Shown here piece after piece: positions 29,369-62,396 of a stretch of 64,000 nucleotides of DNA. Origin of the DNA: a virus; IMG/VR virus record IMGVR_UViG_3300029784_000200. One strand, written 5' to 3'. Position numbers and translations under genes: made by a program. Each line of letters opens with the position of its first letter. Positions within the stretch are counted from its first letter, which is position 1. The notes beneath the pieces are model-generated. The model was given only the letters and a program-made list of their open reading frames with translations, did not search any database and was not told the origin of the DNA.

Positions 29369-29641
29369 GTAAAAATCATATAATCTCAATCACAAGACAT
29401 GGCCCTATATTTTCTCCTTGTCCACATATACGGCCGTAAATATTCTGGATCTCCCTATCCATGACCTCATCTTCGATTTCCCCATCAAGACCATAAATAT
29501 CACCACCATATACATGGATTTTTTTGCCCTCAATGATACGCACAACACTGATTCGTCCTAAGACCCCAACACCCTGTGATAATAATTCTCGCAATGTCAT
29601 AGCATACGCCTCCTTAACCACACATCTCAACAACACAACGT

Positions 29642-29712
29642 CTAACACGGCCCAGCCGGTGGCGGAGCTGCGCCGGCTAATCAATCACGGCTCTCGCCGG
29701 TCCCTCCATCAC
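29642..29712 (-). mobile_element. IS200/IS605-end-like 70-nt segment at the tnpB 3' end, repeated upstream of iscB
   Basis: Reverse complement GTGATGGAGGGACCGGCGAGAGCCGTGATTGATTAGCCGGCGCAGCTCCGCCACCGGCTGGGCCGTGTTAG is about 95% identical to 52913-52982. Contains an imperfect hairpin AGCCGGC...GCCGGCT. Confidence 0.6.
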
Positions 29713-30277
29713 GAAGCGTGGATAAGGTATTTGTGCTTCTATGGGCCAGTTCCGGGACTTTTGCCGTAACGGCCTGCCCCACCGTTGCCGGCAGGGTCTT
29801 TAAGTGCTCACGGATAAAATACCGGGCGCCGATGTTATAGGAAGCATTCAGGTCGCAGTTATACTGCTTCCCGGATGCGAACCTGCATAAACTGTAACTC
29901 GGAAGGTCTGCTTCCTTTCCCCTGGATACCTTTCCGGAACCGTCAAAGGCAAGCTTTGACGTATTCCAGGCACATACCCTGGCAACCCGGATCAGATTCC
30001 GGTGGGCCTTCTCCATGACCATAGACTGGACGTACTTTGCCTTCCAGAGGTGGAGGCGCATCTTCCTGCTTCCCCGTTTCTTTCCGGTAAGGTCCAGACG
30101 CTCCATGACAATGCAGTCTACGTCATATCTGACTGCCATATCCACGATGAACTGCGCGGTCTTTACCACGATGTCATCGTTAATACCTTTTGCCTGTGCC
30201 CACAGTCTCGGAGTACGTCCGGCACAGAGTTTCTGTGCATGTTTGATCTTGACAGAATATGTCATACTTAATTCCAT
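29681..30277 (-). CDS. tnpB: TnpB (IS605 OrfB) C-terminal fragment: RuvC-II / degenerate Zn finger / RuvC-III only; lacks the N-terminal half
   Basis: DCIVMERLDLTG (RuvC-II-like), CAWNTSKLAFDGSG, NCDLNASYNIGARYF (RuvC-III-like). 198 aa versus ~400 expected. Own ATG at 30277 driven by an element promoter box. Confidence 0.55.
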   Translation of the reverse strand: MELSMTYSVKIKHAQKLCAGRTPRLWAQAKGINDDIVVKTAQFIVDMAVRYDVDCIVMERLDLTGKKRGSRKMRLHLWKAKYVQSMVMEKAHRNLIRVARVCAWNTSKLAFDGSGKVSRGKEADLPSYSLCRFASGKQYNCDLNASYNIGARYFIREHLKTLPATVGQAVTAKVPELAHRSTNTLSTLRDGGTGESRD

Positions 30278-45077: not shown

Positions 45078-45121
45078 CGCTACGCCGCAATTGCCAAAAT
45101 ATGTATCATTTCTGACCAATA

Positions 45122-45175: not shown

Positions 45176-45249
45176 GTTTTGTTGCGAAAGTCCAAGACGA
45201 AGGGAAGCAATGACTTGCCAAGCATGGAAATTTCCATGAGAGATTTAGT

Positions 45250-45524: not shown

Positions 45525-45572
45525 CGTTGCACCGCAATTGTCAAAAAATATGTTTCAATTCTGGATTAACAT

Positions 45573-45626
45573 TGACCAAAAAGTGTTATCCGCAAAAATA
45601 CATCTCAAAGAAATAATACATACTGA
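45573..45626 (+). promoter_or_regulatory. duplicated leader promoter (copy 12), also the probable cas operon promoter
   Basis: Box at 45577-45599; CATACTGA at 45619-45626. Confidence 0.55.
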
Positions 45627-45699
45627 CCTTGTCGTAGAGATCCAAGATGATAGGAATCAACGATGCGTCAGCCATAGAAAATTCTTTGAGGAATTTAGT

Positions 45700-45788
45700 A
45701 TCCGCCCCGTGCGTACGGGGATGAACCTGATCGGACGCTTCGGATCGGTCTCACGTAAAAATCCGCCCCGTGCGTACGGGGATGCCCC
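45700..45788 (+). CRISPR. CRISPR array 1d: 2 repeats, directly upstream of cas8e
   Basis: ATCCGCCCCGTGCGTACGGGGATGAACC at 45700 and ATCCGCCCCGTGCGTACGGGGATGCCCC at 45761. Confidence 0.8.
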
Positions 45789-45871
45789 CATAGAAGCACA
45801 AGGATGACAGTTAATAACAGTCTTTTCCATGTACATGGGGAATCAATTATAACAAAAGAAAGGAAAAAATC

Positions 45872-48256
45872 ATGCAGAAACAATTTTGTCTGGTAACAGA
45901 ACCGTGGATCAAAGTGATCGATCTGCAGGGCGAAGTAAAGGAACTCAGCTTAAAGAACGCCTTCGCGCAGGCACATGAAATCCGCTGCCTGGCAGGGGAG
46001 CTGCCGAACCAGGACTTTGCTGTCCTGCGATTTCTGTTAGCCATATTACAGACGGTAATGTACCGGTATGAACCGGACGGCACTGAGAAACTACTGACCG
46101 AACCGGAAGACGCGCTCAGACGGTGGAAAACAGTATGGGAAGATAAGAAATTGCCGGAAACAGTTGTAGACAAATACCTGGAGGAGTGGAAGGAACGCTT
46201 CTACTTATTCCACCCGGACCATCCGTTTTATCAGGTTCCGGGAATCGAAGGAATGGGTACCTCCATCTCACCCGGCAGGATGATCGCGGCAGTCGGGGAA
46301 AGCGACAATAAGGCAAGGATCTTCGGTACATACTCTACCCGCGGAAAGAACGGGATTACGGATGCAGAACTTACCAGATGGATTTTACATTTCCAGGCAT
46401 ATGATACAAAATCCACCAAGATCATAAGAGGCCCCGTTGACCCGGAAAGAGGGAAACTGCATCCAAGGATCGCATGGTGCGGAAATCTCGGCGCCGTATA
46501 CCTGGAAGGCGACAACCTGTTTGAAACGCTGATGTTAAATCTGGTACTGCTTCGCACGGATATTACAGAAGATACCTGCTTTGCCAAACCGAAACCATCA
46601 TGGGAGAGGGACGTATTAAAACCCATTGAGGATAACATCCGAACAGATATCGATAACCAGGCGGAACTGTTATCCATGCCGTGCCGCTGGCTTTTCGTCA
46701 GCCGGCAACAGGATACCTTTTCAGCATCCTCTGTCGTTGGTGAAAACCTCGATCCAAAAAACGCCTTCCTGGAGCAGATGACCTTATGGAGGCCTGTTTA
46801 CGTGAAGGCCAAGGAAGGGGCTGTCACGGATGGGTTCATTCCAAGCCTTTCTGATTACACCAGGGAGAGCATCCCGGACCGGACCGATTTTGGACGCGGT
46901 ATGTGGAACCGGTTCAGCGCCATCACATCGGAACAGGAAGATGCGAGAAAACCCGGCATTATCCTCTGGATGCAGAAGCTGACCGACCGCGGCATCCTCT
47001 CTGAAGAAAAGGCAGTGGCCTTAAAAGGGATCGACACGGTATACCACAAACAGCAGGGAAGCATGGTCATGGACGTAAAGGGAAGCTCCATTGACATGAG
47101 GCTGCTGTTTTTAGGAACGCGCGGCAAGGTATGGAGAGAGATGTTAGACCGCGTCATCCGGCTGACCAACCAGGTGGCGGAAATCTATGCAACCTTTTAT
47201 ATGGAGACATGCAGCGCAATCGGACATTCCTATAACGGCAATACCTTCGGAACCAGATCGGAAGGGGCCGAAATGTTCTATGGAGCTGTGGATGCGCCAT
47301 TAAGGAAATGGCTTTCCGAAATCAACGACCGCGTGACAACACCGGATGAACCGGAAATCACCCCGGAAATGTTTGAAAGAAAATGGGAAGCAGTTGCGTT
47401 CCGCACTCTGGACCGCTGCGCGAAAGAGCGGATCCGCTCCTGTGGCATGGCAGGGATCCGGATCATAGAGTCCGAGACGGCAACATCCGGATATACAGGG
47501 CTTGCATCATGTTACGATAAGCTCTGGTTTACCATAAGAAAGGTCACGGATCATGCACTGGATGAGATCTACTGGAATATGGATCCGCACTCCGACCGCG
47601 CGGATGAGGTGTGTGATTACGTAAGGGAAAAGATCCTTCGGTATCGGAGGACTGCGGATGATCCTAAGACGGTACGGGAACTGGCGCTGCTGCGCAGGAG
47701 CGTTGGACAGGATCCGGAAAACGCATCCAAAATTGCGCAGACTGTTTTACAGGACTTTGAGGAAACCTACCGCGCGGCAACCGGATACACGCGTGCAGAA
47801 CGCGCGGTCTTTGCGGCACTTACCTTATATGCAAGAAGTTTCAAGGATAAAAACGAGGACGGACACACGGAGGAAGCCTCTTTCGGATGCGCCGTAAGAC
47901 TTGCCGCCACGGACAAAGAAACCGGAAAAGAGGACGCAGACTGCTTAAAGCAGATCGTCCGGTACATGAACCGCATCCTCTCGGCGGATTACCTGCAGAC
48001 GCTGGTGCACCATGCGGACAGCCTGTTTCGGGTACAGAAAGGCCGGATGCCAGGATTCGATTACGGCTGGTTTGCAAAGGATCTATTCCTCTGGCAGATC
48101 CGGGAATACAATCCGTCCGTAAAGCTTGCATGGTCTGCGGATTTTCTCCGCAGAAGGAAAACGGCAAAGCTGGATGCAGGAATGCAGGAACAGGAAGAAA
48201 CCGGACCGGATCCGGGTACCAAGAAAACCAAAAAGGCAAGAAAAACAAAAAAATAA
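45872..48256 (+). CDS. cas8e-cas11: Cas8e (Cse1/CasA) fused in-frame to Cas11 (Cse2/CasB) - large+small subunit fusion, 794 aa
   Basis: N-terminal LVTEPWIKV and FYLFHPDHPFYQ parallel CasA LIDNWIPV and FYLNHAEHPFMQ. The C-terminal ~190 aa (…LKQIVRYMNRILSADYLQTLVHHADSLF…DYGWFAKDLFLWQ…VKLAWSADF) parallel the CasB helical pattern (…LDWPLMARMLTWWGK…LLEDF). Confidence 0.75.
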   Translation: MQKQFCLVTEPWIKVIDLQGEVKELSLKNAFAQAHEIRCLAGELPNQDFAVLRFLLAILQTVMYRYEPDGTEKLLTEPEDALRRWKTVWEDKKLPETVVDKYLEEWKERFYLFHPDHPFYQVPGIEGMGTSISPGRMIAAVGESDNKARIFGTYSTRGKNGITDAELTRWILHFQAYDTKSTKIIRGPVDPERGKLHPRIAWCGNLGAVYLEGDNLFETLMLNLVLLRTDITEDTCFAKPKPSWERDVLKPIEDNIRTDIDNQAELLSMPCRWLFVSRQQDTFSASSVVGENLDPKNAFLEQMTLWRPVYVKAKEGAVTDGFIPSLSDYTRESIPDRTDFGRGMWNRFSAITSEQEDARKPGIILWMQKLTDRGILSEEKAVALKGIDTVYHKQQGSMVMDVKGSSIDMRLLFLGTRGKVWREMLDRVIRLTNQVAEIYATFYMETCSAIGHSYNGNTFGTRSEGAEMFYGAVDAPLRKWLSEINDRVTTPDEPEITPEMFERKWEAVAFRTLDRCAKERIRSCGMAGIRIIESETATSGYTGLASCYDKLWFTIRKVTDHALDEIYWNMDPHSDRADEVCDYVREKILRYRRTADDPKTVRELALLRRSVGQDPENASKIAQTVLQDFEETYRAATGYTRAERAVFAALTLYARSFKDKNEDGHTEEASFGCAVRLAATDKETGKEDADCLKQIVRYMNRILSADYLQTLVHHADSLFRVQKGRMPGFDYGWFAKDLFLWQIREYNPSVKLAWSADFLRRRKTAKLDAGMQEQEETGPDPGTKKTKKARKTKK

Positions 48257-48289
48257 ACACCACTATTTTATAAGAAAAGGAGAAAAATT

Positions 48290-49525
48290 ATGAATACCAA
48301 AGGACTTTTTATGGCTGTACATGTCATCCAGAGCTACCCGAGCAACAATTTAAACAGAGGAGAAGACGGATCACCGAAAAGCTGCATTTTCGGCGGCGTC
48401 AGAAGAAGCCGCGTCTCCAGTCAGTGCATCAAGCGTAACGCACGCTTAGCCATGTACGACGTCATTTCTGAAAATGATGAAAACGGCATGGGTATCCGCA
48501 CAAAGACCATGCCGGCCATCATCGCAGCGTTTCTGGAAAAATGGGCCGAGTCAGCGGAAAATGTAACATGGACAGACGATGAGATGGAGAAACAGAAATA
48601 CCATGAAGCGGCAAAAGAATTCGACATCCGTGACGTATCCCATGCCCTGACCGCGGTCGGCATGCAGATTGACGCGAAAAAGAACCATACCTTAAAAAGT
48701 GTTTACTGTACGAACGTGAAGCAGTGTGTGGCATTTGCAAAAACGATGCTGGAGATCGGAAGCAAGCGTGCAGGAGAAGATAAGGACGGTAACTTAAAGT
48801 TAAATCCGTACGATACAAAAACAGAACTTCCGGCCCTGGACGACGCATTGGATTCCTCGATTTCCCTGGACATCATGATGTTCGGAAGAATGCAGGCAGG
48901 AAGACCCATCCATAACGTGGAAGCCTGCATCCAGGTAGGACATGAGTTCTCTACGCATCGCGCGGAAGAAGAATTTGACTACTTCACTGCCGTGGATGAT
49001 GCAAAAGACATGTTAAAGGAGCAGGGCTCCGCGCATCTGGATACCCAGGAGTTCACCTCCGCAACCATGTACCGTTACAGCAGTGTGGATCTTGGCGCCA
49101 TGTACCAGGCCATGAAGAACAACGGTTCCGATATGGGCCTGGCCATGTTAGCAAAGGAGTGGGTACGTGCTTTTGCATTGGCAGCGCCGACCGGAAAACA
49201 GAATTCCTTCGCAGCGACCACCCTGCCGGTCTACGTTTTTGTAGAGTTCCGCAATGACGCACCGGTAAGCTTTGCGAACGCTTTTGAAAAAGCGGTAGAA
49301 GCCGGAACAGACGGATATGAGGGCGCATCCGTAAAAGCGTTCGAGGAACGTGTCAGACGCTCTGATGCAATCGGATGGCTTCATGCACCGGTCGCAAGAT
49401 TTTTAGTTAGCGAACAGGCATCTTCCCTGCAGGACTGCACCCAGCCGAACTTCAATGCTTTGCTGGACCATGTCGAGGAAACCGTAAAAGATGCGGTATC
49501 CGGTATGGAAAAGGAGCGTTCATGA
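48290..49525 (+). CDS. cas7e: Cas7e (Cse4/CasC) Cascade backbone subunit
   Basis: FGGVRRSRVSSQCIKR, FDYFTAVDD...EQGSAHLDTQEFTSATMYRY and ANAFEKAVEAG are collinear with E. coli CasC; RBS AAAGGAGAAAAATTATG. Confidence 0.9.
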   Translation: MNTKGLFMAVHVIQSYPSNNLNRGEDGSPKSCIFGGVRRSRVSSQCIKRNARLAMYDVISENDENGMGIRTKTMPAIIAAFLEKWAESAENVTWTDDEMEKQKYHEAAKEFDIRDVSHALTAVGMQIDAKKNHTLKSVYCTNVKQCVAFAKTMLEIGSKRAGEDKDGNLKLNPYDTKTELPALDDALDSSISLDIMMFGRMQAGRPIHNVEACIQVGHEFSTHRAEEEFDYFTAVDDAKDMLKEQGSAHLDTQEFTSATMYRYSSVDLGAMYQAMKNNGSDMGLAMLAKEWVRAFALAAPTGKQNSFAATTLPVYVFVEFRNDAPVSFANAFEKAVEAGTDGYEGASVKAFEERVRRSDAIGWLHAPVARFLVSEQASSLQDCTQPNFNALLDHVEETVKDAVSGMEKERS

Positions 49526-50262
49526 GTACCCTGTTATTCCGTCTCGCCGCGCCGATGCAGGCGTGGGGGACGGAACCGAGGTTCGACAAATGGCTCCGTA
49601 CGGGCATGGAGCCAAGTAAAAGCGGAGTGATCGGCATGGTTGCTTCCGCCATGGGGATCGACCGGACGGACGATGAAGCACTCCAAAACCTGGTAAAACG
49701 CTTACGGTTCGGCGTCTGCGTGGACCGGGAGGGAACCGTCATTACGGACTATCATGCGACCCGCGTGGTCCCATATCCGGAATGCAGCTACAGGGATCTT
49801 TTTTCCGACAATATCGTGATACGCGGAAAGAAGATCCCGGACACGGCCATTTCCAAATATGACTATAAAAAGTATTACTTATCCGATGCGGCGTTCACCG
49901 TTGGACTGGAGTGCAAGGATGACTCTCTGTTACATACCATCCTGGAAGCACTGCGGCACCCAAAACGAATGCTGTACCTTGGACGGAAATCCTGTCCACT
50001 TATGGAAGAACTGGATGGTGTCATTGTAAAGAAAGCCGTGCTGCCGGCATTAAAGGAACACGCCGAAGCCAAGGCAGATGGACGGTACCATACCTGCAGG
50101 ATCATCTATGACGCGGAAAAGGGAGAACGCGGGACACTGGTAAACGATGAGCCGGTTTCATTCAATGCCCATAAAAAAGTCTGGGCTCCCCGCATGGCAG
50201 CAGAGACCATGGTGGAGATATTCCCACAGTCCGAACAGCACGACCCATTTGCATTTGTATAA
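49522..50262 (+). CDS. cas5e: Cas5e (CasD)
   Basis: MSTLLFRLAAPMQAWGTEPRF and YLGRKSCPL parallel CasD LAGPMQAWGQPTFEG and YLGRRSCPL; ATGA overlap with cas7e. Confidence 0.9.
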   Translation: MSTLLFRLAAPMQAWGTEPRFDKWLRTGMEPSKSGVIGMVASAMGIDRTDDEALQNLVKRLRFGVCVDREGTVITDYHATRVVPYPECSYRDLFSDNIVIRGKKIPDTAISKYDYKKYYLSDAAFTVGLECKDDSLLHTILEALRHPKRMLYLGRKSCPLMEELDGVIVKKAVLPALKEHAEAKADGRYHTCRIIYDAEKGERGTLVNDEPVSFNAHKKVWAPRMAAETMVEIFPQSEQHDPFAFV

Positions 50263-50265
50263 GGA

Positions 50266-50290
50266 GCCCCGTAGATACGGGGAGAAAGAA
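50266..50290 (+). other. solo CRISPR-repeat-like hairpin between cas5e and cas6e (GCCCCGTAGATACGGGGAGAAAG)
   Basis: Same CCCCG...CGGGG stem as the array repeats, with 6-nt loop and A-rich 3' side. Confidence 0.45.
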
Positions 50291-50297
50291 GGAACGT

Positions 50298-50936
50298 ATG
50301 TATTACTTAACCAGGATCGAACTGGATCCGTATAAAAAACTAACACAGCTGGCTTTAAAAAACGCCAACATGATCCATGGAACCATTGAAAAGGTCTTTG
50401 GAAACGAAGCGGAACGGAAGCTCTGGCGTATCGACAGCCTGCGTGGCAGACGGTATCTGATGATCGTCAGCCGGACGCTGCCGGATTTTACACCGTTACT
50501 TGCACAGTTTGCGCCGGACGGCGCCAAGAGCCAGTCAAAATCTTATGACGCCTTTCTGGAAAGCATCAAAGACGGAAGCCAGTGGAACTTTAAGCTTTGC
50601 GGGGTACCGCTCGTGTGCAGGAAGACAGAAAGCAGCCCGAACGGGAAGCGGTTCCCGCTCTTGAAGCCGGAGGAACAGATGGAGTGGCTTATAAAGAAGG
50701 GAAATCTCCACGGATTCACGGTAAATCCGGAACACATCCGGATCACGGATACCGGCCCGTCCAAGCTTTCAAAAGGCGCAGGAGAAGACCATTACGAATT
50801 CCGAATCCGGAAAGTAATATTTGACGGTATCCTGACCGTGACGGACCCGGAAAAATTCCGGGATGCCATGGTAAACGGAATCGGCAAGGAGCGGGCATTC
50901 GGAGGTGGTATGATCACGGTGGTACCGCGCCCGTAG
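50298..50936 (+). CDS. cas6e: Cas6e (CasE) pre-crRNA endoribonuclease
   Basis: MYYLTRIELDPYKK...HGTIEKVFG and C-terminal GIGKERAFGGGMITVVP parallel CasE (…GIGPAKSMGCGLLSLAPL). Confidence 0.85.
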   Translation: MYYLTRIELDPYKKLTQLALKNANMIHGTIEKVFGNEAERKLWRIDSLRGRRYLMIVSRTLPDFTPLLAQFAPDGAKSQSKSYDAFLESIKDGSQWNFKLCGVPLVCRKTESSPNGKRFPLLKPEEQMEWLIKKGNLHGFTVNPEHIRITDTGPSKLSKGAGEDHYEFRIRKVIFDGILTVTDPEKFRDAMVNGIGKERAFGGGMITVVPRP

Positions 50937-51031: not shown

Positions 51032-52384
51032 ATGAGAAAGTTCAGCAAAAAACAGTTTGCCGTGCTGGCCATAGCCGGCGCATGTGCGGTCATCGCAGCC
51101 GCAGGCGGTATATTCTGCCATCAGGTGAAGACGAAAGCCGACGAAGCACTGGCTATGGCGCAGACAGTCGACAAAACCGAAGTCAAAGAGATGAAAAATG
51201 ACAATATCACAGAAAAGACATCGGTACAATTAAGGGATCACTGGACGGTGGCCGCCTTTGGCCTGGATTCCAGGGATCCTGAAAACTTAAAAAGCGGAAA
51301 CTCAGACGTAATCATCCTGATGGATATGGATGGGAAGACCGGATCAGTCAAACTGGTCAGCGTGTACCGGGATACCTGCATGGACATCGGGAAAGGAACT
51401 TTAAGGAAAGCTAATGCCGCATATGCGAACGGCGGCCCGAAGCAGGCAGTCCGGATGTTAAACGAGAACCTGGATATGGAGATCGATGATTACATTGCGG
51501 CCACCTGGAAGAGTGTGGCAGACGCGGTCAATATCTTGGGCGGTGTGGACCTGGAAGTCACAAAAAACGAATTCCGCTACATCAATGCTTTCATCACCGA
51601 GACGGTAAAATCCACCGGGATCGGTTCCCACCAGCTAAAAACCACCGGGATGCAGCATCTTGACGGGGTGCAGGCCGTTGCATACTGCAGGCTGAGGCTT
51701 ATGGACAGTGACTTTAAGCGCACCGAGCGGCAGCAGAAGGTCTTAAGACTGGTACTGGAGAAGGCCAAGAAAGCGGATATGGCAACTCTGAATAACCTGA
51801 TGGTCACGATTTTACCGCAGACAGCCACCTCCATCGAGACAGATGATCTGTTTGCCGTCATGAAAAACATCCTGAAACTGCATATTACGGAAACACATGG
51901 GTTCCCGTCCGAATATGTATGCGAAAAATCCGGAGGCGCGGATTATGTTTTTCCGGACGATCTGGAAAGAAACGTAAAAGAACTGCACGAATTCTTATAT
52001 AATACGGAAGATTATAATCCGTCCGGATATGTCTTGCGGACATCGGAAGCCATCGAGGAAAAGAAAAACAGAGGCAAGAAAAAAGAGACAAGGCAGGAAG
52101 AAGAGAAGCAGGCAGAACAAGCGCAGGATCAATCGGAAACCACGCAGACAGAAACGGAAAACGGAATTCCGGAAATGGAAACAGAGTCGGAAACGGAGCC
52201 TTTTTTAGAGACGATTCCGGAAACGGAGCAGAAGGGATCAAATGGATACGGACCTGGCTTTGAGACGGTACCGGAAATGGATGAAGTCATAATGGAATCG
52301 CAAGCGGAAATGCAATTACAACCGGAGCCGGAACCCCAAACGAAAGTTCCGGCAAAACCGCAGGTGATAGGCCCGGGTGCTTAA
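51032..52384 (+). CDS. LytR-CpsA-Psr (LCP) family protein with N-terminal TM anchor and E/Q/T-rich C-terminal tail
   Basis: DVIILMDMDGKTGSVKLVSVYRDT...ANAAYANGGPKQAVRMLNENLDMEIDDYIAATW, typical of LCP domains. Confidence 0.7.
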   Translation: MRKFSKKQFAVLAIAGACAVIAAAGGIFCHQVKTKADEALAMAQTVDKTEVKEMKNDNITEKTSVQLRDHWTVAAFGLDSRDPENLKSGNSDVIILMDMDGKTGSVKLVSVYRDTCMDIGKGTLRKANAAYANGGPKQAVRMLNENLDMEIDDYIAATWKSVADAVNILGGVDLEVTKNEFRYINAFITETVKSTGIGSHQLKTTGMQHLDGVQAVAYCRLRLMDSDFKRTERQQKVLRLVLEKAKKADMATLNNLMVTILPQTATSIETDDLFAVMKNILKLHITETHGFPSEYVCEKSGGADYVFPDDLERNVKELHEFLYNTEDYNPSGYVLRTSEAIEEKKNRGKKKETRQEEEKQAEQAQDQSETTQTETENGIPEMETESETEPFLETIPETEQKGSNGYGPGFETVPEMDEVIMESQAEMQLQPEPEPQTKVPAKPQVIGPGA

Positions 52385-52437
52385 CCAAGCCATTGCTTAC
52401 AAAAAATTGCAAAAACACAAAAAACGCGGAAAATGAC

Positions 52438-52487
52438 CAAAAAGTGTTATCCGCAAAAATACGCTTTATAAAGATGCGACATACTGA
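52438..52487 (+). promoter_or_regulatory. element promoter box - N20 - CATACTGA (copy 13), upstream of hup/iscB
   Basis: Box at 52438-52460; CATACTGA at 52480-52487. Confidence 0.55.
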
Positions 52488-52581
52488 AGGTGTTAGGCTG
52501 TTGGGGAGCCATCTCCCCTTCTTCCGGGCCGGCAACAGACCAGCCCGGGAAATATAAAACCCATAAAGGAGAAAAACAAAC

Positions 52582-52866
52582 ATGAACAGACAGGAGTTAG
52601 TAAACGCAATCGCAGCAAACAGTGGGATCAGCAAAAAAGACATCGACGAAGTTTTAAAAAACTTTGTGACCGTTGTCATGGATGACGTAGCCGCAGGAAA
52701 CAAAGTGCAGCTGATCGGTTTTGGTACCTTTGAAAGCACAACCAGAGCTGCACGCGAGATGCGTAACCCGAGAACCGGTGAAGTGAGCATGTATCCGGAG
52801 TCCCGTAACGCCAAATTCAAACCGTCCAAAGTATTCAAGGACAAGGTCAATAACTCACGACTGTAG
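52582..52866 (+). CDS. hup: HU/IHF-family DNA-binding protein
   Basis: MNRQELVNAIAANSGISKKDIDEVL...RNPRTGE...SKVFKD, canonical HU fold sequence. Confidence 0.85.
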   Translation: MNRQELVNAIAANSGISKKDIDEVLKNFVTVVMDDVAAGNKVQLIGFGTFESTTRAAREMRNPRTGEVSMYPESRNAKFKPSKVFKDKVNNSRL

Positions 52867-52899
52867 TCGCAAGCTTGAAGCGATTATGTTTTCATTACC

Positions 52900-53206
52900 G
52901 TTTCAAGTTTTGTGATGGAGGGACCGGCGAGAGCCGTGATTGATTAGCCGGCACAGTCCCGCCACCGGCTGGGCCGTGTTAGGCGTTATGCAGGAAATTA
53001 GGCACTCCGGGGTGCTCCACAAGCCCCGGACCCTGCGGCATCCGGTTAAACATCCCTGAGAGTACGGGGAAGTGCCGGATGTGTTCAAACCCTGCAGAAC
53101 ATCGGCGATGTGGACCACCGTCCTTCGGGGCGAGAAGCCGTACGGGCGAAGCTCTGCTTTGCCGGTACGGGAATGCGTAAGCATAGCAAAGAAAAGGAGG
53201 CACCAT
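52900..53206 (+). ncRNA. candidate omegaRNA scaffold of IscB (GC-rich structured region immediately 5' of iscB; includes IS-end-like segment 52913-52982)
   Basis: About 300 nt, noncoding, GC-rich with multiple hairpins (e.g. GGCACTCCGGGGTGCTCC and CCGTCCTTCGGGGCG). IscB omegaRNAs are encoded upstream of and overlapping the iscB 5' end. The ORF track start at 53072 has no RBS, whereas 53207 has AAGGAGG. Confidence 0.4.
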
Positions 53207-54553
53207 ATGGTAGCCGTATTAAGTAAGACCGGCATCCGTCTGATGCCGACATCCAGTTACCGGGCAAGGAAACTCCTTGCCAAAAAGAAAGCAGTCATCT
53301 GCGGGTACCGCCCGTTTACCATCCGTCTCACAGAACGTGAGACCGGGGACGTACAGCCGGTGGAACTTGCAGTTGATACAGGATACTTCCATGTGGGGAA
53401 CAGCTTAAAAACAGCGAAGCACGAATTAGCTGCCGTTGAGATCCGTGCCCTAATGGACGAGAAGCGAAGATATGACGACCGGCGCCAGTACCGCAGGATG
53501 CGGCGCTCAAGGCTCCGCTACCGTGCCCCGCGGTTTGATAACCGCAGGCGGCCGGAGGGATGGCTCGCGCCGTCCATCCAGGGACGCATGGAACAGAACC
53601 TGGCATTTTTAAGACGGATCCTATCCGTCGTGCCGGTCACCCGTATCGTTATGGAGATGGGACAGTTTGATACCCAGGTATTAAAAGCCGTGGAGGAGGG
53701 AAGGCCCCTTCCGGAAGGAACGGATTACCAGCAGGGAGAGCGTTACGGGATTGCCACCTTACGGGAGGCAGTCTTTACCCGTGACAATTACACCTGCCAG
53801 TGCTGCCAAAAGACGGTCTGTGATGGCGCGATCCTTCATGTCCACCACATCGTATACCGGAGCCAGGGAGGGACCGACCGGATGGGGAACCTGATCACGG
53901 TCTGTGAGAAATGCCATACCCCGAAGAACCATAAACCGGGAGGAAAGCTGTACAAATGGAAACCGACGGTCAAAAGCTTCAAGGGGGCAACGTTCATGAC
54001 TGCCGTCCGGTGGATCGTGTACCGGTCCGTGAAGAAGTCTTTCCCGGATGTGGATGTAAGAATCACATACGGGGCAAAAACAAAGCTGCAGCGACGAGCA
54101 ATGGATATCACCAAGAGTCATGTCAATGACGCTTATGTCATGGGAGACTTCCATCCGAAGCACCGGGCCCGTCCGGTCATCCTGCAGAAGAAACGGCGGA
54201 ATAATCGGATCCTGGAAAAGTTCTATGATGCAAAATACATAGACACCCGGGATGGAAGTAAAAAGACCGGACAGCAGCTCTTTAACGGACGTACGAACCG
54301 GAACCATAACACGGATACGGAAAACCTGCGGCTATACCGTGGGATGAAATTATCAAAAGGCAGACGGGCAATCCGTACCACAAGGTACAGGATTCAGCCT
54401 CATGATATCCTTGTATATCAGGGACAGGAAATGGAAGCGTCCGGCTGCCATAACAAAGGAACCAGAGTCATGACGACTGCAAAGAAATCCCTTCCAATTG
54501 GAAAAGTCCGCGTCAGACGGTATTCCGGAGGGTATTATGCGGTCGCAGAATAA
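53207..54553 (+). CDS. iscB: IscB (OMEGA RNA-guided nuclease; PLMP - RuvC-I - Arg-rich bridge helix - HNH - RuvC-III), 448 aa
   Basis: N-terminal GIRLMPT (PLMP motif); LAVDTGYFHVG (RuvC-I-like); RRQYRRMRRSRLRYRAPRFDNRRR (bridge helix); HNH CQCCQK...HVHHIVYRSQGGTD...NLITVCEKCH; size typical of IscB. Confidence 0.75.
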   Translation: MVAVLSKTGIRLMPTSSYRARKLLAKKKAVICGYRPFTIRLTERETGDVQPVELAVDTGYFHVGNSLKTAKHELAAVEIRALMDEKRRYDDRRQYRRMRRSRLRYRAPRFDNRRRPEGWLAPSIQGRMEQNLAFLRRILSVVPVTRIVMEMGQFDTQVLKAVEEGRPLPEGTDYQQGERYGIATLREAVFTRDNYTCQCCQKTVCDGAILHVHHIVYRSQGGTDRMGNLITVCEKCHTPKNHKPGGKLYKWKPTVKSFKGATFMTAVRWIVYRSVKKSFPDVDVRITYGAKTKLQRRAMDITKSHVNDAYVMGDFHPKHRARPVILQKKRRNNRILEKFYDAKYIDTRDGSKKTGQQLFNGRTNRNHNTDTENLRLYRGMKLSKGRRAIRTTRYRIQPHDILVYQGQEMEASGCHNKGTRVMTTAKKSLPIGKVRVRRYSGGYYAVAE

Positions 54554-54619
54554 GAAGAAAGGAGAAGCGGGGATCGGAACCACCGGAAGAAAGAGGAATA
54601 TACTCATTAACACTCTCTG

Positions 54620-54665
54620 TATTCCGGTGCGATTTCTCTCACGACTAAAGTCGCGAGTATCCTCG
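54620..54665 (+). other. nested stem-loop 3' of iscB (GGTGCGATTTCTCTCACGACTAAAGTCGCGAGTATCCTCGCACC)
   Basis: Long-range GGTGCGA/TCGCACC stem enclosing an inner CTCACGAC/GTCGCGAG hairpin; possible IS end or terminator. Confidence 0.4.
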
Positions 54666-54859
54666 CACCGAATCATGAAGGCGTAATCCGAAGAATCGGA
54701 CGCAGCTAAAATTTGCACAAATGCAAAATGTACAAAATTAGACGATCCAGGGTTAATCTCGGGATTGCCTGATTCGAAACCAGCCCACAAAAGCAAACGT
54801 GTACCGGAAGTCCTGACACGCGTTTGCAGTGTCAGGATCCGGTGCGGAAAGGAATTGTT

Positions 54860-57484: not shown

Positions 57485-57874
57485 GGGCATCCCCGTACAT
57501 ACGGGGCTAACTAATATGAGCGAGCCAACATGGTATGTCGGGGTGCATCCCCGCGTATACGGGGCAGATTGGCAAAAATTTTCCAGTCCACTCGATAATC
57601 ATCGGTGCATCCCCGTGCGCACGGGGCAGATAACAGATTTCTTACGAGGCACACTTCCTGTCTTGGCTCATCCCCGTGTATACGGGGCAGATTTTTGTCG
57701 ATACCGATAGGCCCTGAACGATGTGGATTCATCCCCGCGCGCGGGGGCAGATTCAATTCCCGGATCATGAGTCATGCCACCATTCGGTTCATCCCCGTGC
57801 ATACGGGGCAGATGCAATTTTGCTTTCACCTAACTGCTGTACGTACGGCTCATCCCCGTACATACGGGGCGGAT
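57485..57874 (-). CRISPR. CRISPR array 2: 7 repeats of the same I-E-like family, inverted relative to array 1
   Basis: Plus-strand GGCTCATCCCCGTACATACGGGGCAGAT is the reverse complement of ATCTGCCCCGTATGTACGGGGATGAGCC. Repeats at ~57485, 57542, 57603, 57664, 57725, 57786 and 57847. Confidence 0.9.
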
Positions 57875-57946
57875 ACTAAATCCTCAAAAAAGTCCTCTGG
57901 GTCGATGGATAAGCGGTTTCTTTTGTCCCGGCTTCCTACGATAAAA

Positions 57947-58209: not shown

Positions 58210-59535
58210 ATGGAAGAAACAAAAAAAGGAACACCTGAAGTCTTGGATACTGAGCGGATGCCGGAGCCGGAAGCGATCCCACGGGATTATGTGGAGATGA
58301 CATTCGTAAAGGAAACTGCGACCGGAAGGGGAAGAAACGAGATCTTCATCATGGAGAACTTGAAGGATGGCACCATGAAGGTTACACAGGGACGAGTCGG
58401 AATCACAATTGGCCGCTATAAGCCAAAATCCGTAATCCATCCATATTCGGACTGGGACTGGATCTACCGGTCACGCATTGCCAGGGGATACATGGCGACG
58501 AAAACGGTGAAAATGGACCGAATCGAAGTTACCAAAGGCTCAGGAAACGAGCAGGCGGATTATAAACCGATCGAAAACCCGGACGTATCCATGTTCGTCG
58601 AAAACCTGCTGCGGTATGCAAAGTATACCTTTGAAGCATCCTACACGATCCGCGTCGATAACATTTCCGACGAAATGATCAAACTGGGAGAAAAGATCTT
58701 AAAAGAACTTTCAACCGGATATGGGGAGATGAGCGTACCGGAGTTCAACAATAAGCTGAAACTTTTGTACGCAGTGATCCCGAGACGTATGGATAACTTA
58801 TCCAAGCATCTGGCGAAGCACAAACAGGATTTTGCGGCGATCGTGATCGAAGAGCAGGACCTGTTCGACATCATGGTTTCCCAGGTACGCGGTGCGACAC
58901 TGGAAAAACATGCGGAAACGACGATCCTGGAAGCAAACGGCGTGGAAGTGCGCCCGGTCACAGAGGAAGAGGAAGCGTACTTAAAAGGTCTTTTAAAAGG
59001 AAGCGCATCCAAATACCAGAAAGCGTACCGGGTCATCAATCATGAAACGGAAAAGGCATTTGATGAATTCGCTAACCGGGAAGGCTTAAGTGACGGAAAA
59101 GAGAACGGCATCTGCCATCTTTTCCACGGAACCAAACATGCCAACGTCTGGTCAATCCTAACGACCGGCTTAAAGAACCGTCCGCCAAAGGATGTGGTGA
59201 CCACTGGAAAGGCGTACGGAATTGGAACCTATTTTGCTCCGGACGCAATCAAATCCCTTGGATATACGTCGAGGGCGGGCTCCAAATGGGCAAACGGGGA
59301 CCAGGCATACGGACTTATGTTTATCTGCAAGGTGGCGACCGGAAAACCAGATCAATATTACAACGGACATTTGGGATGTGATTCATCTTTAAATTTCGGG
59401 AAACTGCAGACGATCCAACCGGGAGCATTGTGTACCTGGGCGGAATGCCGGTATTCCGGGTTTATGATGGATGAAGTCATCGTCTACCAGGATGAACAGT
59501 CAACCGTGGAATATATTCTGCAGATCGGTATGTAA
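58210..59535 (+). CDS. WGR-domain + PARP-like ADP-ribosyltransferase catalytic domain protein (441 aa)
   Basis: N-terminal ...TATGRGRNEIFIMENLKDGTMKVTQGRVG (WGR-like). C-terminal HLFHGTKHANVWSILTTGL...GKAYGIGTYFAPDAIKSLGY...MMDEVIVYQDEQ parallels the PARP H-G-[ST] / Y / E catalytic signature. Confidence 0.65.
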   Translation: MEETKKGTPEVLDTERMPEPEAIPRDYVEMTFVKETATGRGRNEIFIMENLKDGTMKVTQGRVGITIGRYKPKSVIHPYSDWDWIYRSRIARGYMATKTVKMDRIEVTKGSGNEQADYKPIENPDVSMFVENLLRYAKYTFEASYTIRVDNISDEMIKLGEKILKELSTGYGEMSVPEFNNKLKLLYAVIPRRMDNLSKHLAKHKQDFAAIVIEEQDLFDIMVSQVRGATLEKHAETTILEANGVEVRPVTEEEEAYLKGLLKGSASKYQKAYRVINHETEKAFDEFANREGLSDGKENGICHLFHGTKHANVWSILTTGLKNRPPKDVVTTGKAYGIGTYFAPDAIKSLGYTSRAGSKWANGDQAYGLMFICKVATGKPDQYYNGHLGCDSSLNFGKLQTIQPGALCTWAECRYSGFMMDEVIVYQDEQSTVEYILQIGM

Positions 59536-59549
59536 AAAAGGAGAGAGAT

Positions 59550-62396
59550 ATGGAAACCAAAGAGAAAAGAAACACGGAAGAAATGATATGGAAAACGACG
59601 GATGATACCGCGTCCGCATATCTGGTGCATAAGAAAAGTTCCGAGTTCCGCGGTGCGGAGCGCTGCTCCACGTTACGGCGTTATGACGGACTCAGCAAGC
59701 TCCTGGATACGGTCAAAGAGTCCAATTTTGATGAAGCGATCCTTGCGAAGGATATCATGAAAGGCTATCTGACCGGAAAGTATCAGATCAAGGATTTCAG
59801 GGGACTCATCGACGAGGGACTGGACGATGACCAGATGATGCTCGGGGAACAGCGCGATGGCAAAGCGAAGCGCTTATACTCGATCCTGGAACGTGCGGCC
59901 CTGGCGGAAAAACGGCATGCTTCCCTGGTCAAACGCGCAAAAGTCTATGCCGGACGCTATGAAGTGACCGTAACACCAGATGTACTGTTCCGGACCGCGC
60001 ACAGTGTGGAGCTGGTGTTATACCGCGTCGGAAAGCCGACCGTGACCCAGAACGGCAAAAAACAGGATGCATCCGTAAACAACTGTCTGGAACTGTATTT
60101 CCTGCTGAAATATGCCAGGAGGTTCGTCCCGGATGGGAAAGCCATGGACGTGAAAGCTTCCTATTATTTTTTAAGGAAGAAAACCGATAAGGCGACGGAA
60201 CTGGCGAATGAAGACTTCTTTGAAACAAAAGGCGGAAACATCGTCACCCTGACGGAAGAAAACTACATCGGAGGAACGACTGCGCCAGGAGAGCTGGACG
60301 AGCAGTTCCTTACGCAGTTAGATGAATTCACACAGGGTACAGACGCCTGCACGGAGGAAGCCTGCAAGTACTGTAAGATGCACTCCCAGTGTTACTGGCA
60401 GAAAACTCCGGAAAAATACGAAAAGAAAACCCTGTCCGGAAAACAGGGCGTGATCGTCCCGTCGGATGAACAGCAGGCGGTCATCGATTGCAGGTCCGGC
60501 TACTGCAAGGTTAATGCGGGAGCGGGTACCGGAAAGACAGAGTGTATGACGGAACGCGGAGCAAGGATGTTCGCGGAAGGTACGGACCCGCACAAAATGC
60601 TGTTCATCACCTTTACGGAGGCAGGCGCAACGGAAATGAAGGAGCGTTTGGTAAAGAAGACAGCTGCGAGGGGCCTTGCTATCACAGAAGCGGACATCAT
60701 GGCCATGACGTTCAATGCTTTTGATTACCAGATTATCAAGGAAAATTATGAGGAACTGGGGTTTGAGACGATGCCGAAGGTCGTGGGGCGTGTCAAAAGC
60801 GCCGCGATCTTAACGAGGCTGATGGATGAAAAGCCCGTGAGTGGGCTGGACTACTTAAACTACACAATGGACGGCGGTGCCTTAAGCTGTGCGCAGAAGA
60901 TTATGGAAATCATTAAAACGGAAAAGCTGGACCCTGACGAACAGGGAGCGCCATACCTGCTCGAAGCGGCCATCGCGGATACGGGACTTGCGAAATACCT
61001 GGAACACGTCTCCATGCAGGATCTTTTGGAACTCTACAAAGAGTACGATGCGGAGTTAAAAAAGGACAACCTGATCCAGTTTGCCGACCAGGAACCGCTT
61101 GCGGATAAATTCCTGGATGCGCATCCGGATTATTTGGAGGAGCGTTACGGATTCGCGCACATCATCGTGGATGAGTTCCAGGATTCCAATGACGGGCAGC
61201 TCGACAAGATCAACCGGCTGCGCAACTGTAAAAGCTGCAAGAGCCTGATGGTAGTCGGAGATGACGCGCAGGCGATCTACTCATTCCGACACACTTCTCC
61301 GGAAAACATGATCCATTTCTTTGAAAAGCTGAATGTGACCGGAACGGAGCTGTTCTTAACGCAGAACCGCAGGAGCAGGCAGGAGATCATCGAACTGTCA
61401 AACGCACTGATCGACTTAAACACAGAAAAGGTTGATAAGACCATGCAGTCCACCAGAGGAGCCGGCGGCCGGACAGAAGTAAAGGGATTTTTCAAAAAGG
61501 CAGTCGAATACGAATGGATCGCGACGCAGATCGGGGAATTGATCGATAGCGGCGTTCAGCCGGAGTCAATTGCGTTCATCGCTTATACCCGCGCGGAGAT
61601 CACGGATATGAGTGCGGTGCTTTCCAGGCACGGGATTCCATGGGTCATGAAAAACCCGCTGCTATTAAAAGATAACAGCCGCGTGAACGCCGCCATGTCA
61701 CTGGCTATGGCATTCTATGACCCGGACGCGACCAAATCCTACTTTGATTACCTGGTTGCCAGGTATGACGGGGACCTGTTAAATCAGATGAATGATGAAA
61801 CGCTGACCGAGCAGGTGGACCAGATGCGGGAGGATTTCCTGGCAATGGAAGATCTGCCGTTTACAGCTCAGCGCGCGAAGTTCCACGAATATCTGGACGC
61901 GATCCGGGGAGAGGATGAGGTTTACGCTTACTTCCTGGAACAGCTTTATGATAACGAAGATCTTCAGAGTGAACTGGAATATGTCATGGAGTTTAAGCGG
62001 TTCGGAGATAAAGAAGAAAAAAAGATGGAACAGAGTTACGAAGGCGTTGTCCTGACCACTGCGCATTCTTCCAAGGGACTGGAATGGGAATATGTATTCA
62101 ACAGTATTTCCAAATACGATTCCGAGTGGCTGCACAGTAGCGGAAAGAAAGCGAAGGAAAGACTCGAAGAAACGAGACGTCTCCTCTTTGTGTCCATGAC
62201 CCGCGCTAGGGATGAACTGACCGTCACGGGCCAGTATATCGCATTCGGCACGAAAGAAACCGGTTATACCAACAACCAGTTCTTAGAGGAAGTCCATAAA
62301 CTCCTCGGTGTAACGTATGATCCGGTGGATCATGAAGCAGAAAAAAAGAAAGCAGAAAAGGAAAAGAAAGGAAAAAAGGCAGCGCCAGCTGCGTAA
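59550..62396 (+). CDS. UvrD/PcrA-family SF1 helicase with ~300-aa N-terminal Cys-cluster domain (948 aa)
   Basis: Motif I NAGAGTGKTE; motif II IIVDEFQDSND; motif III VVGDDAQAIYSFR; C-terminal TAHSSKGLEWEYVF...FVSMTRARDEL. N-terminal DACTEEACKYCKMHSQC. Confidence 0.8.
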   Translation: METKEKRNTEEMIWKTTDDTASAYLVHKKSSEFRGAERCSTLRRYDGLSKLLDTVKESNFDEAILAKDIMKGYLTGKYQIKDFRGLIDEGLDDDQMMLGEQRDGKAKRLYSILERAALAEKRHASLVKRAKVYAGRYEVTVTPDVLFRTAHSVELVLYRVGKPTVTQNGKKQDASVNNCLELYFLLKYARRFVPDGKAMDVKASYYFLRKKTDKATELANEDFFETKGGNIVTLTEENYIGGTTAPGELDEQFLTQLDEFTQGTDACTEEACKYCKMHSQCYWQKTPEKYEKKTLSGKQGVIVPSDEQQAVIDCRSGYCKVNAGAGTGKTECMTERGARMFAEGTDPHKMLFITFTEAGATEMKERLVKKTAARGLAITEADIMAMTFNAFDYQIIKENYEELGFETMPKVVGRVKSAAILTRLMDEKPVSGLDYLNYTMDGGALSCAQKIMEIIKTEKLDPDEQGAPYLLEAAIADTGLAKYLEHVSMQDLLELYKEYDAELKKDNLIQFADQEPLADKFLDAHPDYLEERYGFAHIIVDEFQDSNDGQLDKINRLRNCKSCKSLMVVGDDAQAIYSFRHTSPENMIHFFEKLNVTGTELFLTQNRRSRQEIIELSNALIDLNTEKVDKTMQSTRGAGGRTEVKGFFKKAVEYEWIATQIGELIDSGVQPESIAFIAYTRAEITDMSAVLSRHGIPWVMKNPLLLKDNSRVNAAMSLAMAFYDPDATKSYFDYLVARYDGDLLNQMNDETLTEQVDQMREDFLAMEDLPFTAQRAKFHEYLDAIRGEDEVYAYFLEQLYDNEDLQSELEYVMEFKRFGDKEEKKMEQSYEGVVLTTAHSSKGLEWEYVFNSISKYDSEWLHSSGKKAKERLEETRRLLFVSMTRARDELTVTGQYIAFGTKETGYTNNQFLEEVHKLLGVTYDPVDHEAEKKKAEKEKKGKKAAPAA

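What the first reader, a model, noticed from the sequence alone, without database searches (positions are those of the whole stretch)
52900..54665. IscB (OMEGA) nuclease gene next to the Cascade operon, with a structured upstream region and an IS-end segment shared with a truncated tnpB 23 kb away
53207-54553 encodes a 448-aa protein with PLMP-like, RuvC-I, Arg-rich bridge helix, HNH and RuvC-III arrangement, consistent with IscB. The ~300-nt GC-rich noncoding region upstream (52900-53206) is where an IscB omegaRNA would be. The first 70 nt of that region (52913-52982) are about 95% identical to the reverse complement of 29642-29712, which is the 3' end of the truncated tnpB. Even the last 9 codons of tnpB (DGGTGESRD-stop) and its TGA are preserved upstream of iscB. 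So an IS200/605 right-end-like sequence, normally the TnpB-side omegaRNA scaffold, sits on the IscB 5' side. That suggests a tnpB-RE::iscB junction, or an IS605-family element whose two ends share this hairpin. No tnpA is present in the window.
Basis: partly seen in the sequence, partly recalled or inferred. Interest (0 to 1): 0.7.

Follow-up and report, generated by a model that had tools for sequence, protein, structure and literature searches.

The report
IscB transposon inserted in HU gene
This is an ordinary, intact IscB/omegaRNA mobile element (IS200/IS605 type, no transposase of its own) inserted into the last codons of an HU gene, and the "tnpB end" seen upstream of iscB is really a piece of the IscB guide-RNA gene that was left, as a leftover fragment, on a decaying tnpB pseudogene 23 kb away.

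Summary
The observations hold. ORF 53207-54553 is an IscB with RRXRR and HNH domains and all RuvC/HNH catalytic residues. The region upstream is a full-length HEARO/omegaRNA (Rfam RF02033, 103 bits, 52846-53118). An 81-87-nt stretch (52904-52990) recurs at 29634-29720 on the minus strand at 91-96% identity.

The interpretation of that repeat is reversed. Ten TnpB homologues and one 96%-identical tnpB locus end ...STLIxLNAEL. The window's tnpB diverges exactly where the repeat starts, so "DGGTGESRD*" is not tnpB sequence. The same stretch is an internal part of the omegaRNA in IscB copies from unrelated contexts.

Ten IscB loci from outside, eight independent, with both junctions readable in six, plus four syntenic empty sites define a 1,829-bp element, 52846-54674. 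It has matching subterminal hairpins and no target duplication. It sits next to ATGAA (TTCAT on the other strand, the TAM published for ISGst5 IscB), inside the last four codons of HU. The predicted guide is 52830-52845. No tnpA lies in the window.

This is a new member of a well-known kind. The orphan omegaRNA piece is a rearrangement relic. Interest is low.

The parts
52582..52866 (+). HU (Bac_DNA_binding) gene. It is native up to 52845. Its last 6 codons and its stop codon (VNNSRL*) come from the inserted element.
   Evidence: Pfam 2.9e-30. Uninterrupted homologues are 91 aa and end KVFK(D/E)KMNA. Empty-site alignment.
52830..52845 (+). Predicted omegaRNA guide (AGTATTCAAGGACAAG): the 16 nt of HU coding sequence that abut the omegaRNA-side end of the element.
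   Evidence: Inferred from the element boundary and from the published IscB architecture, in which the guide lies 5' of the scaffold and outside the transposon end (PMC10055086). The guide length is assumed, not measured.
52846..54674 (+). Non-autonomous IS200/IS605-type IscB element, 1,829 bp.
   Evidence: Homology among independent copies starts at GTCAATAAC and ends just before ATGAA. Joining 52845 to 54675 reproduces the uninterrupted HU 3' end of syntenic contigs L013-L016.
52854..52873 (+). Subterminal imperfect hairpin at the omegaRNA-side end (the RE in the Meers et al. nomenclature). It is also the first hairpin of the omegaRNA. The HU stop codon TAG lies in its loop.
   Evidence: Motif search finds only two sites in 64 kb, 0.04 expected by chance. 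HEARO alignment.
52846..53118 (+). omegaRNA scaffold as matched by Rfam HEARO. Conserved extra hairpins continue to about 53195.
   Evidence: 103.1 bits. (covariation, and conserved stems at 53127-53140 and beyond).
52904..52990 (+). The segment shared with 29634-29720. It is an internal part of the omegaRNA and contains: the end of hairpin 2, a small GNRA hairpin, the 3' strand of P1 (GTGATTGAT), the 5' strand of the pseudoknot (AGCCGG), hairpin 3, and the start of the central stem.
53207..54553 (+). iscB CDS, 448 aa. Features: PLMP-like LMPT 12-15; RuvC-I D57; Arg-rich bridge helix 92-106; RuvC-II E150; HNH H213/H214, N228, H237 with Cys197/200/233/236; RuvC-III H305/D308; C-terminal TAM-interaction region.
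   Evidence: Close homologues of 74-96% identity and 446-448 aa.
54638..54657 (+). Subterminal hairpin at the far end (the LE in the Meers et al. nomenclature), same motif as at 52854-52873.
54675..54679 (-). Target/TAM pentanucleotide 5'-TTCAT-3' (ATGAA on the + strand), present once, directly outside the element.
   Evidence: ATGAA adjoins this end in 7 of 8 independent copies and ATGAT in one. It is also present in the empty sites. It is identical to the TAM reported for ISGst5 IscB (PMC10055086).
54675..54686 (+). Displaced native end of HU (ATG AAG GCG TAA = MKA*), followed by its hairpin TCCGAAGAATCGGA.
   Evidence: Homologues end KMNA*.
29634..29714 (-). Orphan internal fragment (81 nt) of an IscB omegaRNA gene. 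It lacks the element terminus, the 5' strand of P1, the 3' strand of the pseudoknot, the rest of the scaffold and iscB.
   Evidence: It gives no HEARO hit on its own. Its variant bases are a mosaic of the window copy and the L005 copy, so it derives from a sister copy.
29681..30277 (-). tnpB pseudogene ORF (198 aa). It keeps the native N-terminal 12 codons, has an internal deletion, has native RuvC/TNB sequence up to 29715, and then reads into the omegaRNA fragment (RDGGTGESRD*).

Best explanation
Positions 52846-54674 are one intact, non-autonomous IS200/IS605-family element. It carries an omegaRNA gene (HEARO type) and iscB. It inserted without target duplication beside a TTCAT motif (ATGAA on the + strand), inside the last four codons of an HU gene on what looks like a large plasmid.

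Inferred mechanism, following the published model for IscB elements:
1. The omegaRNA is transcribed from upstream. Read-through from HU is likely, because the element lies in the same orientation and no terminator intervenes.
2. Its 5' guide is the HU sequence that abuts the element (52830-52845).
3. IscB-omegaRNA cuts any copy of the site that lacks the element (guide match followed by ATGAA). This could be the donor joint after TnpA-mediated excision, or an empty sister copy.
4. Recombinational repair from an occupied copy then restores the element.
5. Transposition itself needs a Y1 TnpA supplied in trans.

The 81-87-nt match at 29634-29720 is not a TnpB end. It is an internal piece of a sister IscB omegaRNA gene joined by illegitimate recombination (1-nt overlap) to a tnpB pseudogene that has lost its own 3' end, omegaRNA and right end. 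The piece cannot fold into a scaffold and is most likely inert.
For: Shown by tools:
- IscB domains and catalytic residues are present.
- There is a full-length HEARO hit above the gathering score, with covariation across 8 loci.
- Element boundaries are identical in copies with unrelated flanks.
- Both ends carry the same imperfect hairpin, found nowhere else in the window.
- Four syntenic contigs (LytR-HU-Band7-SSB) carry the uninterrupted site. They match the window's 52845|54675 join in register, at 41 of the first 46 aligned positions across the junction. The predicted 91-aa HU has 91-aa homologues ending KMNA.
- ATGAA lies next to the far end in 7 of 8 copies and equals the published ISGst5 IscB TAM TTCAT. 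The same paper places the HEARO/omegaRNA at the transposon RE upstream of iscB (PMC10055086).
- IscB relatives of 90-96% identity occur in at least 3 other contexts, so the family moved recently.

For the orphan piece:
- TnpB homologues cover only 90-94% of the window ORF and end differently.
- L012 DNA is about 96% identical up to 29715 and unrelated after it.
- L005's omegaRNA contains the segment nearly verbatim.
Against: - There are no expression data.
- The simple sigma-70 scan found no promoter in 52380-54830, so the source of omegaRNA transcription is inferred.
- Guide length, TAM use and cleavage are inferred from homology and from the literature, not measured.
- No tnpA is in the window, so current mobility is unproven.
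- How the orphan fragment arose is unresolved. Both of its breakpoints lie inside the omegaRNA rather than at an element end.
- Only one DNA-level tnpB comparator (L012) was available.
Confidence: 0.9

Rival explanations
1. The shared segment is an IS200/605 right end or TnpB omegaRNA scaffold that now lies 5' of iscB. This would make a tnpB-RE::iscB hybrid junction or a module swap between TnpB and IscB elements.
For: The segment ends a tnpB-derived ORF in frame, with a stop codon. IscB omegaRNAs do sit at the end that Meers et al. call the RE.
Against: - The native TnpB C-termini differ, and the window ORF diverges at the segment's first base.
- The L012 tnpB locus has a different 3' region from that base onward.
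- The segment is part of the HEARO alignment. It is conserved, with compensatory changes, in IscB loci that have no tnpB.
- No TnpB omegaRNA family hit is found at 29300-30400.
Confidence: 0.03
2. The shared segment is the terminal hairpin common to both ends of one IS605-type element. The copy at 29.6 kb would then mark a second element end, a solo end or a miniature element.
For: IS200/605 ends do share hairpins, and this element has such a pair.
Against: - The end hairpin is a different 20-mer, found only at 52854-52873 and 54638-54657.
- The shared segment starts 58 nt inside the element.
- It lacks the terminus GTCAATAAC and that hairpin.
Confidence: 0.02
3. The orphan omegaRNA piece is functional, for example as a trans-acting RNA. 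It carries one pseudoknot strand and one P1 strand and could pair with, or compete with, the full omegaRNA. Alternatively it could serve as a useful C-terminal tail for the TnpB remnant.
For: It lies downstream of a promoter-like motif that also precedes tnpB in L012. The fused ORF is kept identically in a second assembly (L017).
Against: - L017 is 100% identical over 1.2 kb, so it is the same lineage and not independent conservation.
- None of the 120 best TnpB-family hits listed, all covering at most 94% of the query, reaches the tail. This is out of 856 hits in a 5.8-billion-sequence database.
- The junction 20-mer has only two chance matches in the metagenome collection.
- The tnpB is internally deleted.
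- The piece alone scores no HEARO hit.
Confidence: 0.04
4. The match is an assembly artefact, with a chimeric contig joining reads from two omegaRNA copies.
For: Repeats can misjoin in metagenome assemblies.
Against: - The segment differs at 8 of 87 positions from the window's own omegaRNA.
- Both flanks are unique sequence.
- An independently assembled JGI contig has the same junction.
Confidence: 0.01

Closest known systems
ISGst5-type IscB elements of Geobacillus stearothermophilus (Meers et al. 2023; preprint PMC10055086)
   Same: - Non-autonomous IS200/IS605-family element carrying iscB.
- A HEARO-like omegaRNA lies upstream of iscB and is bounded by the transposon end.
- Subterminal hairpins at both ends, and scarless insertion.
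- The same TAM/target pentanucleotide, TTCAT.
- Predicted targeting of the donor joint.
   Different: - Different host lineage: a gut Lachnospiraceae-like plasmid.
- The omegaRNA has lineage-specific insertions, namely a longer hairpin 2 and an extra GNRA hairpin at 52878-52936.
- Activity was not tested here.
- No cognate TnpA was identified.
OgeuIscB-omegaRNA (PDB 7UTN, 7XHT, 8CSZ) and the IscB/OMEGA family of Altae-Tran et al. 2021 (the latter from my own knowledge)
   Same: Same domain order and catalytic residues: D57/E150/H305/D308 in RuvC and H213-H214 in HNH align with those of the solved IscBs. The guide RNA is of the HEARO type.
   Different: 448 aa versus about 496 aa. Only E about 1e-30 similarity at the sequence level. 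TAM ATGAA (inferred) versus NWRRNA for OgeuIscB (PMC12660989 abstract). ATGA fits the NWRR part.
Rfam RF02033 HEARO RNA (Weinberg et al. 2010, from my own knowledge)
   Same: Full-length match above the gathering score, with P1, the pseudoknot and the central multi-stem conserved.
   Different: 49 extra nucleotides inside the P1-enclosed region. Two to three conserved 3' hairpins lie beyond the model end. Meers et al. also noted such downstream elements for the Rfam model.
TnpB/IS605 OrfB pseudogenes
   Same: The 29681-30277 ORF retains the RuvC/TNB C-terminal half of TnpB.
   Different: Internally deleted. It lacks its native last 10 or so codons, its omegaRNA and its right end, and is capped by a foreign IscB-omegaRNA fragment.

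Membership tests
IscB (OMEGA RNA-guided nuclease) | N-terminal PLMP/RRXRR region, a split RuvC with an Arg-rich bridge helix, and an inserted HNH domain, in a protein of about 400-500 aa without a REC lobe | tested here: met
   Pfam RRXRR 1e-46 (residues 2-177) and HNH 5.5e-10 (197-242). Eight of the 11 PDB hits are IscB chains, the best at E 7.6e-31. The other three are IsrB, a Cas9 and an unnamed HNH nuclease.
IscB (OMEGA RNA-guided nuclease) | Intact catalytic residues in RuvC I/II/III and in HNH | tested here: met
   D57, E150, H213/H214, N228, H305 and D308 align with the corresponding residues of solved IscB.
IscB (OMEGA RNA-guided nuclease) | A cognate omegaRNA (HEARO) encoded directly upstream on the same strand | tested here: met
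   RF02033 at 103.1 bits versus a gathering score of 83, at 52846-53118, 88 nt before the start codon. Homologous loci score 100-130 bits. Covariation is shown.
IscB (OMEGA RNA-guided nuclease) | RNA-guided, TAM-dependent DNA cleavage | not testable with these tools
   Needs an interference or in vitro cleavage assay.
IS200/IS605-family transposable element (non-autonomous) | Discrete ends conserved between copies that sit in unrelated flanks | tested here: met
   Both junctions are readable in the window, L001, L005, L006, L018/19, L026/29 and L030. They place the boundaries at 52846 and 54674. In L007 only the 52846-side junction is intact.
IS200/IS605-family transposable element (non-autonomous) | Subterminal imperfect hairpins at both ends, no terminal inverted repeats, and no target-site duplication | tested here: met
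   CTCACGACTnnAGTCGCGAG occurs at 52854 and 54638, in the same orientation. Joining the flanks reproduces the empty site with a single ATGAA.
IS200/IS605-family transposable element (non-autonomous) | Insertion next to a conserved 4-5-nt target that doubles as the nuclease TAM | tested here: met
   ATGAA (TTCAT) in 7 of 8 independent copies. It is the same as the ISGst5 IscB TAM.
IS200/IS605-family transposable element (non-autonomous) | A Y1 HUH transposase TnpA (needed only for autonomous members) | tested here: not met
   No PF01797 hit in any of the 144 stop-to-stop ORFs of 95-260 aa in the window. This fits the non-autonomous majority: only about 1.5% of iscB genes have a tnpA nearby (PMC10055086).
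   TnpB homologues end STLIxLNAEL, not STLRDGGTGESRD. L012 diverges at base 29715.
   No such hit up to E=10 in 29300-30400. However, the Rfam TnpB models cover only a small subset of TnpB omegaRNAs (PMC10055086).
HEARO/omegaRNA (for the orphan copy at 29634-29714) | A complete scaffold able to form P1, the pseudoknot and the central stems | tested here: not met
   It holds only the equivalent of model positions about 40-85. It gives no HEARO hit on its own. The partner strands are absent.

The most novel reading that the evidence does not exclude
The omegaRNA fragment welded to the tnpB remnant could be a footprint of direct recombination between co-resident IscB-type and TnpB-type IS605 elements. 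That would be natural evidence that guide-RNA modules are shuffled between the two nuclease lineages. Alternatively, the transcribed fragment, which carries one pseudoknot strand and one P1 strand, could modulate the resident IscB omegaRNA in trans.
Probability: 0.04. Interest if true: 0.45.

Novelty: new member of a known kind. Interest (0 to 1): 0.12.

Why it matters
It matters little beyond annotation.

- It gives a cleanly delimited natural IscB element, with ends, hairpins, guide, TAM and a matching empty site. That makes it a ready test case for IscB homing on a plasmid. The compact 448-aa IscB with an ATGAA/TTCAT TAM could be of minor interest as an editing scaffold.
- It corrects a tempting misreading. 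A tnpB ORF that appears to share its "3' end" with an iscB upstream region does not indicate a hybrid TnpB/IscB element. The tail of that ORF is foreign.
- It is an example of an IS supplying the last codons and the stop codon of a host gene (HU), and probably using that gene's transcription.

Tried and rejected
- An exact search for the reconstructed empty site in viral contigs found nothing. The empty site was found instead through HU protein homologues.
- The genome-contig scan with IscB gave only 4 loci. More copies came from exact-protein look-ups.
- Megablast of the element against PLSDB plasmids gave no match.
- The sigma-70 promoter and terminator scan of 52380-54830 found no promoter and only one weak terminator-like site, on the minus strand inside iscB. 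It was not informative.
- An Rfam E-value scan of 29300-30400 found no HEARO or TnpB-omegaRNA hit and only three noise hits (MicA, sR42, ZFAT-AS1_3).
- A metagenome scan for the tnpB::omegaRNA junction 20-mer gave two hits. Both are chance matches in unrelated GC-rich DNA.
- I considered that GTCAAT at 52846 might be native HU (Val-Asn). I rejected this because five IscB copies with unrelated flanks start with the same GTCAATAAC (a sixth lineage has ATCAATAAC), and native HU homologues end KMNA.
- I considered that the partial similarity upstream of the shared segment in the MAFFT alignment was real. I rejected this because that stretch is conserved tnpB coding sequence.
Full report
**Observation**

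The ORF at 53207-54553 (+) encodes 448 aa. It matches Pfam RRXRR (1e-46) and HNH (5.5e-10), and its best PDB matches are IscB chains at E about 1e-30. Alignment to those chains, with motif positions, shows these features:
- a PLMP-like LMPT at 12-15
- RuvC-I D57
- an Arg-rich helix at 92-106
- RuvC-II E150
- HNH H213/H214, N228 and H237, with four zinc cysteines
- RuvC-III H305 and D308

Rfam's HEARO model (RF02033, the IscB omegaRNA) matches 52846-53118 (+) over its full length at 103.1 bits, against a gathering score of 83. Identity collapses to chance outside.

**Which element owns the shared segment**

I asked whether the segment is native to tnpB or to the IscB omegaRNA.

On the tnpB side:
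- The 198-aa ORF 29681-30277 (-) has 856 homologues, but the best hits cover only 90-94% of it.
- In an alignment of ten homologues, all continue ...RSTCTLSTLIxLNAEL.., whereas the window ORF reads ...STNTLSTL|RDGGTGESRD*.
- At the DNA level, contig L012 (tnpB 91% identical in protein) is about 96% identical to the window up to base 29715. It then continues into a different 3' region. L012 also shows that the window's tnpB has an internal deletion just after its native first 12 codons.
- So the tnpB is a pseudogene that has lost its own last codons, its omegaRNA and its right end. The "last nine codons" are foreign.

On the iscB side:
- I collected IscB copies of 96%, 90%, 90% and 74% identity, each in a different genomic context (L005, L006, L007, L001).
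- In their upstream alignment, the shared segment is part of a continuous conserved block. L005 carries it almost verbatim, including three variant bases that the 29.6-kb copy has and the window's own omegaRNA lacks.
- In the HEARO alignment the segment corresponds to model positions about 40-85. These are the 3' strand of P1, the 5' strand of the pseudoknot, a hairpin and the start of the central stem, preceded by a lineage-specific insertion.
- That insertion contains a 4-bp GNRA hairpin. Its stem changes CGGC/GCCG to CAGC/GCUG in L005, which is a compensatory change.
- RNAalifold on eight loci gives 65 pairs, 33 with compensatory changes. It also shows conserved hairpins beyond the Rfam model, up to the iscB ribosome-binding site.

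The 29.6-kb copy is therefore an 81-nt internal fragment of a sister omegaRNA gene. It has one base of overlap at the junction with tnpB. It lacks every pairing partner needed for the scaffold, and on its own it gives no HEARO hit.

The exact fused ORF exists in one other assembly (L017), which is 100% identical over 1.2 kb and so belongs to the same lineage. The junction 20-mer has no true match in the metagenome collection.

**The IscB element itself**

*Boundaries.* Across copies with unrelated flanks, homology begins exactly at GTCAATAAC (window 52846) and ends just before ATGAA (window 54674|54675).

*End hairpins.* Both ends carry the same imperfect hairpin, CTCACGACTnnAGTCGCGAG, at 52854-52873 and 54638-54657. 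It occurs nowhere else in 64 kb, against 0.04 matches expected by chance.

*Effect on HU.* The left boundary lies inside the HU ORF (52582-52866), so the final VNNSRL* of HU is encoded by the element. Joining 52845 to 54675 predicts a 91-aa HU ending KVFKDKMKA*. The protein database contains 91-aa homologues of 85-93% identity that end KVFK(D/E)K(M/L)NA.

*Empty sites.* The contigs carrying those homologues (L013-L016) have the same LytR-HU-Band7(-SSB) gene order as the window. At the junction they read ...AAGGAGAAA|ATGAACGCGTAATCCGAAGAATCGGACGC..., colinear with the window's two flanks. These are empty sites. The insertion is precise, 1,829 bp long, and has no target duplication.

*Target and TAM.* ATGAA adjoins the far end in 7 of 8 independent copies. 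On the other strand this is TTCAT, the TAM that Meers et al. determined for the ISGst5 IscB. [quoted passage not shown]

*No transposase.* No Y1 transposase domain is found in any ORF of 95-260 aa in the window. The same paper reports that only about 1.5% of iscB genes have a tnpA nearby.

**Mechanism**

Shown here: the element's anatomy, the empty site, the TAM-like motif, an intact nuclease and a covarying RNA.

Inferred from the published model:
- The omegaRNA is transcribed from upstream, probably as read-through of HU, because the orientation matches and no terminator intervenes. The consensus promoter scan was uninformative.
- Its guide is the flanking 16 nt, AGTATTCAAGGACAAG (52830-52845).
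- IscB-omegaRNA cuts copies of the site that lack the element (guide match followed by ATGAA). Homologous repair from an occupied copy then restores it.
- Movement to new TTCAT sites needs a TnpA supplied in trans.

The related empty-site contigs differ from the guide at 3 of 16 positions.

**Comparison and novelty**

Every defining feature of IscB and of a non-autonomous IS200/IS605 element that can be tested in silico is met. The closest described relatives are the ISGst5-type IscB elements and OgeuIscB-omegaRNA. The differences are host, size (448 aa) and lineage-specific omegaRNA insertions. This is a new member of a known kind.

The feature that made the finding look unusual, a TnpB right end on the IscB side, is refuted. 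What remains is an orphan omegaRNA fragment on a decaying tnpB, best read as rearrangement debris. I give a small probability to recombination between the two element types being biologically meaningful, or to the fragment acting in trans.

The neighbouring Cascade genes are separated from the element by LytR and HU. Nothing links them functionally to IscB.

Noticed in passing
window 43906-50936 and 57536-57881: There is a type I-E Cascade gene set with a Cse1-Cse2 fusion (45872-48256), Cas7 (48290-49525), Cas5 (49522-50262) and Cas6e (50298-50936). No Cas3, Cas1 or Cas2 Pfam hit appeared in the ORFs I scanned. The CRISPR array at 44060-45793 is split into four mini-arrays, each preceded by a copy of a leader-like repeat of about 180 nt (43906, 44474, 45096, 45546). 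A further inverted mini-array lies at 57536-57881.
   Followed up: partly
window, at least 15 sites, e.g. 12531, 14281, 20574, 37897, 41429, 43923, 52424, 62435 (+) and 4172, 30333, 33519, 57971 (-): The motif (TTGA)CCAAAAAGTGTTATCCGCAAAAA, often followed about 25 nt later by CATACTG, recurs in intergenic regions just upstream of genes. It also precedes tnpB in the unrelated contig L012. It looks like an element-specific promoter or operator.
   Followed up: no
window 6465-12510: ParA (6465-7649), ParB (7652-8881) and an HTH protein (9358-10443, minus strand) lie next to 17 iteron-like repeats, AAAGTCCACGTTTTTAGCGACAAAA (10522-12510). This suggests the window is part of a large plasmid or other extrachromosomal replicon.
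   Followed up: partly
window 52864: The window's copy has T where the six other independent copies of this end that were read have A (CTGTAG or CTATAG-type loop versus CTGAAG or CTAAAG) in the loop of the end hairpin. This creates the TAG that stops HU after VNNSRL. With A, the ORF would run four codons further to a TGA.
   Followed up: partly
L001 about 5440, L018 about 3961, L030 about 2744: In several other copies, the ATGAA target next to the element's far end coincides with an ATG that lies at or next to the called start of the downstream gene. The element sits immediately upstream of that ORF.
   Followed up: no
window 22176-23438; 58210-62396; 39984-41378; 25001-26659: Other cargo includes an RNA polymerase Rpb1-domain-1-like protein, a PARP-like protein followed by a UvrD-family helicase, a PIN-PhoH fusion, and a PIN7-domain protein. 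These are possible defence or replication modules of the replicon.
   Followed up: no
window 17183-17548: Five or six tandem copies of a 61-nt unit, some 98-100% identical, run into the start of a gene for a choline-binding-repeat protein (17385-18608).
   Followed up: no
L007 5449-7000: In the L007 copy the far end of the IscB element lacks its last 7 nt or so and the ATGAA. An IS256-type (Transposase_mut) gene and an IS66 gene follow, so that end may have been clipped by another insertion.
   Followed up: no
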